25,115 bases of DNA from Gaiellaceae bacterium (GTDB lineage: Bacteria; Actinomycetota; Thermoleophilia; Gaiellales; Gaiellaceae): contig DATDDZ010000021.1 of assembly GCA_036523555.1 (NCBI GenBank), forward strand, positions 1-25,115. Reading direction: 5' to 3'. Of the stretch, positions 16,118 through 18,491 are shown one piece after another; positions within the stretch are counted from its first letter, which is position 1; each line of letters opens with the position of its first letter. The notes under the pieces were generated by a model that made no database searches, was not told the origin of the DNA, and saw only the letters and a list, made by a program, of their open reading frames with translations. Position numbers and translations under genes: made by a program.

Positions 16118-16296
16118 CCAGCGCGGAGAAGTACGTCGCGGCCGCGTATCTCGTTGTCTTCGTCGTCGTCCTCGCTTACGTCCTGATCATCGCCGCGAAG
16201 CTCGACCGGCTCGAGCGCGAGGTCGCCGAGCTCAGTGAGCTCGCACACGCACGCAGGGAGGACGAACCGGAGCGAGAGGCGGTCGCGGTTGGCTGA
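16114..16296 (+). CDS. ccmD: CcmD-like small membrane protein (60 aa)
   Basis: GTG 16114 overlaps the ccmC stop; KYVAAAYLVVFVVVLAYV single TM followed by a charged tail; position directly after ccmC. Confidence 0.75.
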   Translation: MTSAEKYVAAAYLVVFVVVLAYVLIIAAKLDRLEREVAELSELAHARREDEPEREAVAVG

Positions 16297-17080
16297 GCTC
16301 TTGTTCTGGCCGGCTTTGATCGCCTACGGCGAGGCGGCGGTCGCCTATCTCGGCGATGCGCGCCGTCCCGGGCTGGCAGGGCGGCTCGCGATCTGGGGCG
16401 TCCGCGTCGGCTGGCTCGTCCAGACCGCGCTGCTCGCGGTTCAGGCCGCCCGCTCGGACGGGTTTCCGTGGTCGACGTGGGCAACGTCGCTCAACCTCTT
16501 CGTCTGGCTCGTGGTCGCGGCCTATCTGATCTGGGGCTGCCGGCCCCGGTATCGGTTGCTCGGGCTGGCGGTCCTCCCTCCTGCGGTGATCCTGTTCGCC
16601 CTGGCCCGCGCGGGCGGCGGGACCGGCGTGGGTGCGCACAGCCGGTACTCGAATCTCTTCCTCGTGCTGCACGTCGGGCTCGTCCTGACCGCGTTCGCCG
16701 GTTTCATGCTCGCCGCGTCGCTGTCGGCCCTGTATCTCTGGCAGGAGCAGCGGCTGAAGCGCCACGAGGCATCGATCCTCCGCGTGCGCGCGCCGGCGCT
16801 CAGCCGCCTAGACGAGCTGACGGGCAGGACGATCGCGGTCGCGGTGCCGGCTCTGACTCTGGGGATCGCCGTCGGGATCGTGCGCCTGCGTAGCGACGGT
16901 GGGGGGTTCGACGCGCTGATGGCGGTGACGGTGCTCACGTGGGCCGTGTATGGGACCTACCTCGGGCTGCGCTATCTCGCGGGCTGGCGCGGCCGGCGTG
17001 GCGCCTATCTCGTCCTCGCAGGCTTCGCGCTCGTCGTCGTGGCCAGGCTCGCCCTCCCCATCACCCACTTCACCTCATGA
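16289..17080 (+). CDS. HemX/YpjD-like membrane protein of the CcsA (cytochrome c assembly) superfamily
   Basis: TTG start with GAGAGG upstream; LVLHVG, LYLWQEQRLK, PALSRLD, GWRGRRGAYL, C-terminal HF; no WGxxWxWD motif; directly precedes hemA. Confidence 0.8.
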   Translation: MAELLFWPALIAYGEAAVAYLGDARRPGLAGRLAIWGVRVGWLVQTALLAVQAARSDGFPWSTWATSLNLFVWLVVAAYLIWGCRPRYRLLGLAVLPPAVILFALARAGGGTGVGAHSRYSNLFLVLHVGLVLTAFAGFMLAASLSALYLWQEQRLKRHEASILRVRAPALSRLDELTGRTIAVAVPALTLGIAVGIVRLRSDGGGFDALMAVTVLTWAVYGTYLGLRYLAGWRGRRGAYLVLAGFALVVVARLALPITHFTS

Positions 17081-17274
17081 GCGTCGCTCGCTTTCGGCTC
17101 GCTCTCTCAGGGGAAACGATGTTTCCCCTGAGCAACTCCTTCTTCCGGCATCGCCTCAGCCCGCGCGCCGCTGAGATCGCCGCGCGTGCCGAGGAGAGCG
17201 AGAGGGGAAACCTCCCGGTTTCCCCCTTGTCCCCTTCCCCCGCTCATGGGCCAGAGTGCGCCCCATGAGCGTCG
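17076..17274. mobile_element. About 190-bp structured insertion flanked by an 11-bp direct repeat (CATGAGCGTCG)
   Basis: Direct repeats at 17076-17086 and 17264-17274; hairpins CTCAGGGGAAAC/GTTTCCCCTGAG (12 bp, 17106-17132) and GGGGAAACC/GGTTTCCCC (9 bp, 17204-17225); further stems 17098-17106/17194-17202 and 17076-17083/17241-17248. Confidence 0.65.
17077..17268 (+). CDS. 63-aa ORF spanning the insertion, ATGA-coupled at both ends
   Basis: The ATG overlaps the hemX TGA and the TGA overlaps the hemA ATG. The sequence MSVARFRLALSGETMFPLSNSFFRHRLSPRAAEIAARAEESERGNLPVSPLSPSPAHGPECAP has no recognisable family. Translation is unproven. Confidence 0.35.
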   Translation: MSVARFRLALSGETMFPLSNSFFRHRLSPRAAEIAARAEESERGNLPVSPLSPSPAHGPECAP

Positions 17275-18491
17275 TCCTCGTCGGCATCTCCCATCACCAG
17301 GCGCCCGTCGACCTGCGCGAGCGCGCGGCCCTCGACCTTCCCCGCGCGGCCGAGCTCGCCTCCCGGCTCGCAGGCCCGGAGGGCGAGGCCGTCTGCCTCT
17401 CGACGTGCAACCGTACGGAGCTGTATCTCGCCGACGAGTCGGGGGAGGATGCCGAGCAGCGCGCCGAGGCTGCGCTGCTCGCCCTCGAGACCGAGCTCGG
17501 CCCCGCGCTCTACCGCCTGCGAGACGAAGCTGCCGCGCTCCACCTCTTTCGCGTCGCGGCCGGTCTGGACTCGATGGTCCCCGGAGAGGGCGAGATCCTC
17601 GGGCAGGTCCGGAGCGCACACGACGCCGGCGTTGCCGGTCCGATTCTGGACCGGCTCTTCCGACAGGCCCTCCACGCTGGCAAGAAGGTGCGCGCGCAGA
17701 CCGCGATCGGCGAGAGCCCCGCGTCGATTGCATCAGCTGCTGCCGCGCTCGCCGAGCAGGTGTTCGGCGACCTGCGCGGCCGCTCGGTGCTCGTCATCGG
17801 CGCCGGGAAGATCGGCGAGCTGGCCGTTCGGAGCCTTGCTTCCCGCGGAGCGACGATCTCGTTCGTCGCCAACCGCACGGTCGACCGGGCTGCCGGGCTC
17901 GCGGAGAAGTTCGGCGCCGAGGCGCTCCCGCTCGATCGCATCGACGGCGAGCTCGAGCGCGCCGACGTCGTGCTGACGTCGACGAGCGCGCCGGGATGGA
18001 TCCTGACGCGAGACCAGGTCGCGCGTGGCCTGCCCGCGCGCAAGGGACGCTCGCTCTTCCTCATCGATCTCGCTGTCCCGCGTGATCTGGAGCCGGCGAT
18101 CAACGACCTCGACGGCTGCTATCTCTACGACATCGACGACCTGGAGGCGGTTGTCGCCGAGACGCTTGCAGGCCGCCGCCGCGAAGCCGAGCAGGCCGAG
18201 GCGATCGTCGCTGCGGAGGCGGACCGGTTCCGCGAGTGGCAGGCGTCGCTCGACGTCGTCCCTGCGATCGCCTCGCTCCGCGCGCGCGCCGAGGAGATCC
18301 GCGCGGCCGAGCTTCAGCGCGCCAAGCTCAGCGACTCCGAGCGCCGGGCTGCCGACTCGGTGACCGCGGCGGTCCTCAACAAGCTCCTGCATCTGCCCAC
18401 CGTTCGCATGAAGGAGGCAGCCGCGGCAGCCGATGGGGTCCTCTATGCTGACGCGGTGCGTCACCTCTTCGGTCTCGAGGACGAGCGCTGA
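17265..18491 (+). CDS. hemA: Glutamyl-tRNA reductase
   Basis: VGISHHQAPVDLRER, LSTCNRTELY, GLDSMVPGEGEILGQVR, IGAGKIG, IDLAVPRD, LYDIDDL. Confidence 0.96.
   Translation: MSVVLVGISHHQAPVDLRERAALDLPRAAELASRLAGPEGEAVCLSTCNRTELYLADESGEDAEQRAEAALLALETELGPALYRLRDEAAALHLFRVAAGLDSMVPGEGEILGQVRSAHDAGVAGPILDRLFRQALHAGKKVRAQTAIGESPASIASAAAALAEQVFGDLRGRSVLVIGAGKIGELAVRSLASRGATISFVANRTVDRAAGLAEKFGAEALPLDRIDGELERADVVLTSTSAPGWILTRDQVARGLPARKGRSLFLIDLAVPRDLEPAINDLDGCYLYDIDDLEAVVAETLAGRRREAEQAEAIVAAEADRFREWQASLDVVPAIASLRARAEEIRAAELQRAKLSDSERRAADSVTAAVLNKLLHLPTVRMKEAAAAADGVLYADAVRHLFGLEDER

What the first reader, a model, noticed from the sequence alone, without database searches (positions are those of the whole stretch)
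17076..17274. Structured insertion that duplicates the hemA start and reads as a 63-codon bridge ORF preserving translational coupling
Seen: removing one copy of the 11-bp repeat CATGAGCGTCG plus the 177 bp between the copies restores a normal hemX(TGA)/hemA(ATG) ATGA overlap. With the insert, the first ATG opens a stop-free 63-codon frame ending in a TGA that again overlaps the hemA ATG. The insert folds into several stems, including two GGGGAAAC/GTTTCCCC hairpins, and carries CGCTCATG (17241-17248), which is complementary to its own target and could sequester the start codon. Established: Rickettsia palindromic elements show that palindromic repeats can be tolerated as coding sequence. Inference: a non-autonomous element that inserts into overlap junctions without polarity, possibly using target complementarity and possibly tuning hemA translation. 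An 8-nt match in GC-rich DNA could be chance.
Basis: partly seen in the sequence, partly recalled or inferred. Interest (0 to 1): 0.72.

Follow-up and report, generated by a model that had tools for sequence, protein, structure and literature searches.

The report
MIRU-like relay repeat at hemA start
The 188 bases between hemX and hemA are one copy of a small repeat that is common in soil Gaiellaceae bacteria, lands exactly on start codons between neighbouring genes and carries an open "bridge" reading frame that lets ribosomes pass; mycobacterial MIRU repeats already work this way.

Summary

- **Insertion:** relatives have an empty hemX/hemA site with a plain ATGA overlap. Only the three closest genomes carry the insert.
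- **Family:** it belongs to a dispersed family found in 82 of 151 sampled Gaiellaceae genomes.
- **Position:** of 78 copies examined, 64 start exactly in the stop/start overlap of the upstream gene. All end in (A/G)TGA, whose first three bases are the start codon of a long downstream frame, apart from two followed by a partial second copy and one cut by a contig end.
- **Frame:** 72 of 78 keep the bridge frame open.
- **Selection:** there is none on the peptide (260 synonymous and 655 non-synonymous changes, against 249 and 661 expected). Stops are avoided (0 of 40 copies, about 15 expected), and net length changes are mostly multiples of three.
- **Structure:** four stems covary. The last pairs the downstream start codon and tracks the host gene's second codon.
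- **Correction:** the 11-bp "target duplication" is not general. Only NTGA is repeated; the other 7 bases are the element's own conserved left end, which happens to match native hemA.

No transposase partner was found. RNA versus DNA action of the stems is unresolved. The closest known system is the mycobacterial MIRU. This scan has noted MIRU-like repeats before on other DNA, including Gaiellaceae.

The parts
16235..17080 (+). Upstream gene (hemX/CcsA-like cytochrome c assembly protein). Its TGA stop at 17078-17080 lies inside the left ATGA.
   Evidence: ORF list; Pfam PF01578, E 1.4e-16.
17077..17080 (+). Left ATGA: the upstream stop overlapping the start of the bridge frame. This is the original stop/start overlap of the empty site.
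   Evidence: Empty sites in relatives read ...CACTTCGCGAC-ATGA-GCATCGTCC.
17081..17268 (+). The inserted 188 nt: the element body plus its terminal ATGA. The cut could equally be drawn 4 nt to the left.
   Evidence: Filled versus empty comparison. Matches other copies at 79-82% in the same genome and 94% in G011.
17077..17268 (+). Bridge (relay) ORF of 63 codons plus TGA. The frame is kept open but the peptide is not conserved as a protein.
   Evidence: No Pfam hit. Called 'hypothetical protein' in 105 database clusters.
17106..17132 (+). Hairpin 1: a 12-bp stem, CTCAGGGGAAAC / GTTTCCCCTGAG.
   Evidence: 7 of its 12 pairs show double changes across copies. The G062 orthologue shows a C-G to U-A double change.
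17154..17194 (+). Middle stem, CCTCAG (17154-17159) with CCGAGG (17189-17194). This copy has one A-C mismatch.
   Evidence: Helix 2: 4 of 6 pairs with double changes, 91% of cells paired.
17204..17225 (+). Hairpin 2: GGGGAAACC / GGTTTCCCC, with the same stem core as hairpin 1.
   Evidence: 97.7% paired, nearly invariant.
17241..17271 (+). Terminal start-codon hairpin: CGCTCATGGG (17241-17250) pairs with CCCATGAGCG (17262-17271). The purine-rich loop lies between the arms. The hemA ATG (17265-17267) and its second codon are in the 3' arm.
   Evidence: Covariation: N/N' pair types CG 36, GC 11, AU 9, UA 5. The hexamer tracks the host's second codon.
17265..18491 (+). hemA (glutamyl-tRNA reductase). 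Its ATG overlaps the TGA of the bridge ORF.
   Evidence: Pfam GlutR_N, Shikimate_DH and GlutR_dimer.

Best explanation
Window 17081-17268 is one copy of a dispersed, probably mobile, non-autonomous repeat family of the Gaiellaceae (Thermoleophilia, Actinomycetota). The family has a long form of about 188 nt and a short form of about 140 nt. Elements lie directly on a start codon followed by A (NTGA, preferably NTGAGC), which in most cases is also the stop/start overlap with the gene before. Each copy begins with NTGA and ends with ATGA. A reading frame whose length is always 2 mod 3 therefore runs from the upstream stop to the downstream start.

Inferred mechanism: a ribosome finishing hemX re-starts on the bridge frame, reads through the stems, stops at UGA on the hemA AUG and re-initiates there. 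Operon translation and protection from polarity then survive the insertion. The last stem locks the hemA AUG and second codon against a complementary hexamer, and often shows a Shine-Dalgarno-like loop. hemA translation should therefore depend on a ribosome arriving through the bridge.

Shown: the insertion, the family, the position, the frame conservation and the stem covariation. Inferred: translation of the bridge, the coupling role of the last stem and the way the element moves.
For: - **Insertion:** the hemX/hemA junction is a plain ATGA overlap in 11 relatives that read cleanly and is filled only in G000, G062 and G011. The C283 copy is absent from the closest relative, G062. The C70 site is empty in most relatives.
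- **Family:** there are 5 copies in this 74%-complete MAG. 19 of 24 genus genomes have a match, as do 82 of 151 genomes and 57 of 89 genera of the family.
- **Position:** in 64 of 78 copies a long upstream frame stops exactly in the left NTGA. The right ATG opens a long frame in all but two copies followed by a partial second copy and one cut by a contig end. Flanking genes are real and unrelated in function.
- **Frame length:** left-to-right distances in the first 63 copies are 188 (43 copies), 191 (11), 194 (2), 185 and 206. Off-frame values are 187 (2), 184, 189 and 190. Short forms measure 137 and 140. The relay frame is intact in 72 of 78 copies.
- **Selection:** 260 synonymous and 655 non-synonymous changes were seen, against 249 and 661 expected. 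Variation is flat across codon positions. No copy of 40 has an internal stop, against 15.1 +/- 3.1 expected if the same substitutions fell at random.
- **Structure:** 95.5% of cells are paired, against 40-52% in slid controls. 18 pairs and 115 cells show double changes, against 6-11 and 9-18.
- **Terminal stem tracks the host gene:** with second codon AAC the hexamer is GTTCAT in 5 of 5 copies. ATC goes with GATCAT in 2 of 3, AGT with ACTCAT in 3 of 4, and AGG with CCTCAT in 1 of 2. Orthologous copies compensate in place (L095/L110 versus L099).
- **Ribosome-binding motif:** an SD-like tetramer lies 6-8 nt before the right ATG in 31 of 63 copies, against 10.5 +/- 2.9 in control windows.
- **Derivatives:** deletion forms in G000 keep the relay (46 codons on C248, 16 codons on C274).
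- **Precedent:** MIRUs insert at start codons with a coupled ORF at -4 spacing (PMC12548453; PMC3184786).
Against: - Translation of the bridge and re-initiation are therefore inferred.
- The wobble test gives no sense-strand signature: 22 G-U against 50 A-C cells. The stems could act in DNA rather than in mRNA.
- Copies are related, so the counts overstate independent events (63 copies fall into about 46 locus groups).
- Openness of the frame may partly reflect loss of disruptive insertions rather than a device built into the element.
- Six copies have a broken relay yet persist.
- The hemA copy has only a weak SD-like loop (AGAG).
- No mobilising enzyme was found.
Confidence: 0.8

Rival explanations
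1. This is a purely selfish DNA-level hairpin element of the REP/REPIN or IS200/IS605-derived 'PATE' type. The two identical GGGAAAC stems are protein-recognition hairpins. The GCTCAT hexamer is a guide that pairs with the NTGAGC target in single-stranded DNA. The open frame is only what purifying selection leaves behind.
For: Hairpins 1 and 2 share the same stem core. Insertion is orientation-specific next to a fixed tetranucleotide, and the element ends in the same tetranucleotide. Occupied sites have second codon AGC in about 75% of copies, against 18% of candidate NTGA junctions in G000. There is no sense-strand G-U excess. Y1_Tnp genes are present in 52 of 53 genus genomes.
Against: No element copy or GGGAAAC hairpin lies within 1.5 kb of the 12 best Y1_Tnp genes. 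In G000 the hairpin motif occurs only inside element copies. Y1_Tnp genes also occur in genomes with no element match (G006, G008, G017, G021). Stems are repaired in place in orthologous, immobile copies, which points to a role at the resident site or to hairpin-templated repair. Three-nucleotide indels and avoidance of stops indicate selection on translation.
Confidence: 0.2
2. The 63-codon frame is a genuine small-protein gene that has been duplicated around the genome.
For: Gene callers list it as a 63-aa hypothetical protein in at least 105 clusters. The frame is open in most copies.
Against: Synonymous and non-synonymous changes occur at the rates expected by chance, and codon positions vary equally. 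There is no Pfam family. Conservation follows nucleotide stems, not residues. Deletion forms of 16 and 46 codons keep only the ends. Every copy is wedged into a junction between unrelated genes.
Confidence: 0.03
3. It is a heme-specific regulatory leader (attenuator or riboswitch) of hemA.
For: It is a structured RNA-like segment immediately upstream of hemA with the start codon sequestered.
Against: There is no Rfam match. The same element sits before SnoaL-like, BatA/VWA, ABC-2 permease, OppC-like and many other genes. Most relatives have hemA without it.
Confidence: 0.02

Closest known systems
MIRU (mycobacterial interspersed repetitive units; Supply et al. 1997, as summarised in PMC12548453 section 11 and PMC3184786 section 9)
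   Same: A dispersed repeat in intercistronic regions of operons, co-oriented with the genes. It inserts at start codons. It has its own small ORF, whose start overlaps the upstream stop and whose stop overlaps the downstream start (-4). It has tetranucleotide direct repeats, empty and filled orthologous sites, and GC-rich internal inverted repeats.
   Different: This family occurs in a different class of Actinomycetota (Thermoleophilia/Gaiellaceae). It is 137-206 nt rather than 40-100 bp. It is almost always a single unit rather than a tandem VNTR array. It has four covarying stems, including a start-codon stem whose inner arm tracks the host gene's second codon. Sequence relationship to MIRU was not tested.
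   Same: A palindromic repeat tolerated inside translated sequence.
   Different: RPEs are inserted in frame within host proteins and become part of them. Here the element forms a separate ORF with its own start and stop. Fusions are rare: 7 longer proteins against 105 stand-alone clusters.
REP/REPIN elements with RAYT, and IS200/IS605-derived palindrome-associated elements
   Same: Short GC-rich hairpins repeated in the element, strand- and site-specific placement, and Y1/HUH transposase genes present in the genomes.
   Different: No Y1 gene is flanked by these hairpins. REPs are untranslated and lie outside coding frames; these elements are built around a reading frame.
MITEs (for example Correia, Nezha, ERIC)
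   Same: Small, non-autonomous and structured, with empty and filled sites.
   Different: No terminal inverted repeats were seen, only an 8-nt subterminal match. No parent IS was found. Junction specificity and the phased ORF are not MITE features.
Termination-reinitiation coupling at ATGA overlaps (PMC6728339) and classical start-codon-masking hairpins
   Same: The proposed way ribosomes pass from gene to bridge to gene, and the way a stem makes downstream initiation depend on upstream translation.
   Different: Here the coupling signals are carried by a repeat and duplicated by its insertion.

Membership tests
MIRU-like intercistronic relay repeats | Dispersed repeat between co-directional genes, in the orientation of the genes | tested here: met
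   In the 78 copies the right ATG opens a long frame on the element's strand, apart from two copies followed by a partial second copy and one cut by a contig end. In 64 of 78 the upstream stop lies in the left NTGA.
MIRU-like intercistronic relay repeats | Own ORF overlapping the upstream stop and the downstream start by 4 nt | tested here: met
   The window copy runs from ATG 17077 to TGA 17268. 72 of 78 copies are intact.
MIRU-like intercistronic relay repeats | Tetranucleotide direct repeat, and empty versus filled orthologous sites | tested here: met
   NTGA lies at both ends of every full copy. Empty sites were found at hemX/hemA, C283 and C70.
MIRU-like intercistronic relay repeats | Unit size of 40-100 bp, often in tandem arrays (VNTR) | tested here: not met
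   Units are 137-206 nt. Only two loci carry a partial second unit (L038, L105).
MIRU-like intercistronic relay repeats | Sequence homology to mycobacterial MIRU consensus | not tested
All listed hits (80 of 114) of the pattern scan of 185,579 species genomes were Gaiellaceae/Gaiellales-type MAGs.
MITE | Terminal inverted repeats matching a parent IS | tested here: not met
   Only CATGAGCG/CGCTCATG, and it is subterminal on the right. No longer element with the same ends was seen.
REP/REPIN-RAYT | The repeat hairpins flank a RAYT (Y1_Tnp) gene | tested here: not met
   12 Y1_Tnp loci with 1.5-kb flanks showed no element hit and no GGGAAAC hairpin. Only 12 loci were read.
IS200/IS605-type non-autonomous element | Similar subterminal hairpins at both ends, and insertion 3' of a fixed short target in one orientation | tested here: inconclusive
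   Two hairpins share a core, and placement is always after NTGA. No enzyme link was found, and the data fit other mechanisms too.
Rickettsia palindromic element | In-frame insertion inside a host protein-coding gene | tested here: not met
   The element forms a separate ORF bounded by its own start and stop. Only 7 fused proteins were found.
Known RNA family (Rfam) | Match to a curated covariance model | tested here: not met
   The best hits had E 1.6-9.8, far below the gathering scores.

The most novel reading that the evidence does not exclude
The internal hexamer (GCTCAT and its variants) is a guide that selects the insertion site by base pairing with a start codon plus second codon. It would do so in single-stranded DNA or in an RNA intermediate. 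The family would then be a start-codon-homing element with a re-settable guide, mobilised by a host-encoded enzyme. The same hexamer would later serve the host as a strict translational coupling lock.
Probability: 0.12. Interest if true: 0.8.

Novelty: new member of a known kind. Interest (0 to 1): 0.5.

Why it matters
The MIRU principle is a mobile repeat that survives inside operons by carrying its own relay reading frame. This finding shows the principle is not a mycobacterial curiosity: it is a major repeat family of an abundant, uncultured soil lineage.

The many diverged copies work as a natural mutagenesis experiment on termination-reinitiation. Selection keeps the frame, the phase and a start-codon stem, but not the peptide.

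There is also a practical point. These 46-64-codon "hypothetical proteins" in metagenome catalogues are repeat artefacts, and the repeats break MAG assemblies at gene junctions.

Tried and rejected
- **Rfam** scan of 16700-17600 found nothing near threshold.
- **11-bp target duplication as a general rule** is rejected. Most copies have the consensus left end whatever the right flank is. A minority do share extra target-like bases on both sides. These are L096 (13 nt), L040 (ATGAGCAC), L090/L102 (ATGAGG), C283 and C70. I cannot tell whether that comes from microhomology at insertion or from later homogenisation by slippage or hairpin repair.
- **Campbell-type integration of a 188-nt circle** predicts an attR that the C283 site does not show.
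- **Y1/HUH transposase as partner:** genes are present but have no physical or presence/absence link to the element.
- **Sense-strand G-U excess as proof of an RNA fold** was not found.
- **Peptide as a protein** is rejected.
- **Matches in 16 genomes of four other families of the order** were weak. The four hits had E 9e-5 to 9e-4. Re-scoring with the profile left only one, at E 0.038.
- **One script timed out** and was rewritten.
- **No complex or structure prediction was run**, because the peptide shows no protein-level constraint.

Full report
**1. The observation**

- The window reads CATGAGCGTCG at 17076-17086 and again at 17264-17274.
- The upstream ORF (16235-17080) belongs to the cytochrome c assembly family. 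The downstream ORF is glutamyl-tRNA reductase, and its N-terminal domain begins at residue 6 of the frame opened by ATG 17265.
- TGA 17078-17080 overlaps ATG 17077. That ATG opens 63 codons ending at TGA 17266-17268, which overlaps ATG 17265.
They are stable as RNA at -20.1, -17.8 and -18.5 kcal/mol. The whole region folds better than all 200 shuffles.
- The "8-nt match" is really a perfect 10-bp stem (17241-17250 with 17262-17271) that contains the hemA start codon.

**2. It is an insertion**

- A search of 53 genomes of the same genus with the HemA N-terminus found the gene in 49.
- In the 11 relatives that read cleanly in the query's orientation, the junction is a plain overlap...CACTTCGCGAC-ATGA-GCATCGTCC....
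- Only G000 and its two closest relatives, G062 and G011, carry the 188 nt.
- Two empty-site relatives (L072, L078) already start hemA with ATGAGCGTCGTC. The right-hand 11-mer is therefore native hemA.

**3. It is a family**

- The 74%-complete MAG holds three full copies (C21, C70, C283), one truncated copy (C248) and one 48-nt remnant (C274).
- 19 of 24 genus genomes have matches, with up to 25 matches scored per genome (only 19 first-look candidates per genome were scored).
- Across the family, 82 of 151 genomes and 57 of 89 genera have matches. Most other genera carry a 137-140-nt short form that lacks the middle.
- Record titles identify the hosts as Gaiellaceae/Gaiellales soil MAGs.
- Sixteen genomes from four other families of the order gave no convincing match.
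- The tallies include a few unpublished genomes (G044, G045, G095, G108, G176). No specific claim rests on them. I left their loci out of the junction comparisons.

**4. Anatomy across 78 copies**

- Every full copy begins (A/G)TGA(G/A/C)CGTCGCTCGCC and ends ...GCTCAT-N-GGCC-loop-GGCC-N'-ATGA.
- In 64 of 78 copies a long upstream frame stops in the left NTGA. In 11 more the stop lies within 21 nt upstream.
- The right ATG opens a long frame in all but two copies followed by a partial second copy and one cut by a contig end.
- The flanking genes of the five G000 copies are real and unrelated in function:
  - CcsA-like / HemA
  - hydrolase / SnoaL-like
  - unknown / BatA-VWA
  - ABC ATPase / ABC-2 permease
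  - OppB-like / OppC-like
- The C283 site is empty in the closest relative. There the upstream stop does not overlap the start (TGA-A-GTG). The target is therefore the start codon context, not the overlap as such. That is how MIRUs are described.

**5. What selection keeps**

- Left-to-right distances in the first 63 copies are 188, 191, 194, 185 and 206, all 2 mod 3. Six have an off-frame distance; with the left start re-placed, L125 is in phase and L124 is not. Short forms of 137 and 140 nt obey the same rule.
- Substitutions relative to the consensus are 260 synonymous and 655 non-synonymous, against 249 and 661 expected. They fall evenly over codon positions. The peptide is therefore not under protein-level constraint.
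- None of the 40 gap-free copies has an internal stop. Random placement of the same substitutions gives 15.1 +/- 3.1 copies with a stop, and never fewer than 5.
- The two deletion derivatives in G000 still chain stop to start: 46 codons on C248 and 16 codons on C274.
- Copies share ancestry, so these figures overstate independence. The direction is nevertheless clear.

**6. Structure**

- On the 63-copy alignment, a four-helix structure is 95.5% paired, against 40-52% when partners are slid.
- It has 18 pairs and 115 cells with double changes, against 6-11 and 9-18 in slid controls. No shuffle reached any measure.
- The terminal stem pairs the downstream ATG and second codon. Its N/N' pair uses all four Watson-Crick combinations.
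- The inner hexamer follows the host gene: GTTCAT with AAC (5 of 5), GATCAT with ATC (2 of 3), ACTCAT with AGT (3 of 4) and CCTCAT with AGG (1 of 2). It does not follow ACC (0 of 3).
- Orthologous copies compensate in place:
  - G062 changed a C-G pair of hairpin 1 to U-A.
  - G011 changed hemA codon 2 to AAC, together with the hexamer and the left end.
  - L099 carries a synonymous AGC-to-AGT change matched by the hexamer.
- About half the copies show an SD-like tetramer 6-8 nt before the ATG, in the loop.
- G-U cells (22) do not exceed A-C cells (50). The data therefore do not show that the stems act in mRNA. Hairpin-templated repair in DNA could also produce concerted changes.

**7. The "target duplication"**

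- In most copies the left end is the family consensus whatever follows the right ATGA. The general repeat is 4 nt, as reported for MIRUs.
- Occupied sites are nevertheless biased. The second codon is AGC in about 75% of copies, against 18% of candidate NTGA junctions in G000. CGTCG follows in about 10% of occupied loci, against 1.6% of candidate junctions.
- A minority of copies share extra target-specific bases at both ends.
- The bias may reflect a target preference, survival of well-paired insertions, or later homogenisation. I could not separate these.

**8. Mobility**

- Y1_Tnp genes occur in 52 of 53 genus genomes. None of the 12 loci I read carries the element's hairpins nearby.
- Genomes without the element also have Y1_Tnp genes. 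No partner is identified.

**9. Comparison and novelty**

- The design matches MIRUs in position, orientation, phased ORF, 4-nt repeats and empty sites.
- It differs in host class, size, lack of tandem arrays, and the covarying start-codon stem.
- Full-text searches found no description of such a repeat in Gaiellales.
- Earlier notes of this scan report MIRU-like repeats in several lineages. One is a 46-codon family in Gaiellaceae. Another is a 184-nt hairpin spacer that shares words with this element. The kind has therefore been seen before on other DNA in this scan.
- I file this as a new member of a known kind, of moderate interest.

Noticed in passing
G000 contig C274:3540-3590 (locus L005:1501-1551): A 48-nt remnant of the element lies between OppB-like and OppC-like genes. 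The left end is joined to the terminal hairpin, apparently by deletion between two CGCTC repeats. It still reads as a 16-codon ORF from ATG (TGATG with the upstream stop) to a TGA overlapping the downstream GTG. G018, G022 and G001 hold full-length copies at the same junction.
   Followed up: partly
G000 contig C248:2257-2397 (locus L004:1501-1641): A truncated copy (positions 1-129) lies between an ABC ATPase and an ABC-2 permease. It still forms a 46-codon bridge from ATGA to GTGA.
   Followed up: partly
Relatives, about 3.1-3.7 kb from hemA (for example G022:C11:25384-25671, G012:C16:4719-5006, G043:C25:12584-12868): A roughly 148-codon Y1_Tnp-like frame sits at a conserved distance from hemA in at least a dozen relatives. 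It looks syntenic rather than mobile. It was not detected in the window's own contig (the G000 hits are on C181 and C266).
   Followed up: no
L047:1501-1542 (G020) and L048:1481-1539 (G009): The hairpin-2 module plus the CCCCTTCC tract occurs alone in another sequence context. This suggests a modular set of related repeat subfamilies.
   Followed up: no
L038 and L105 (right flank of the element): The right ATGA is followed by a partial second copy of the left end. These are the only tandem-like arrangements seen, and they are a possible route to homogenising the two ends.
   Followed up: no
The family profile hits the contig only at 17076-17274.
   Followed up: partly
G011 contigs C305 and C106: Contigs of a close relative end exactly at the start codons that carry the element in G000. 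This fits the repeat breaking short-read assemblies at gene junctions.
   Followed up: no
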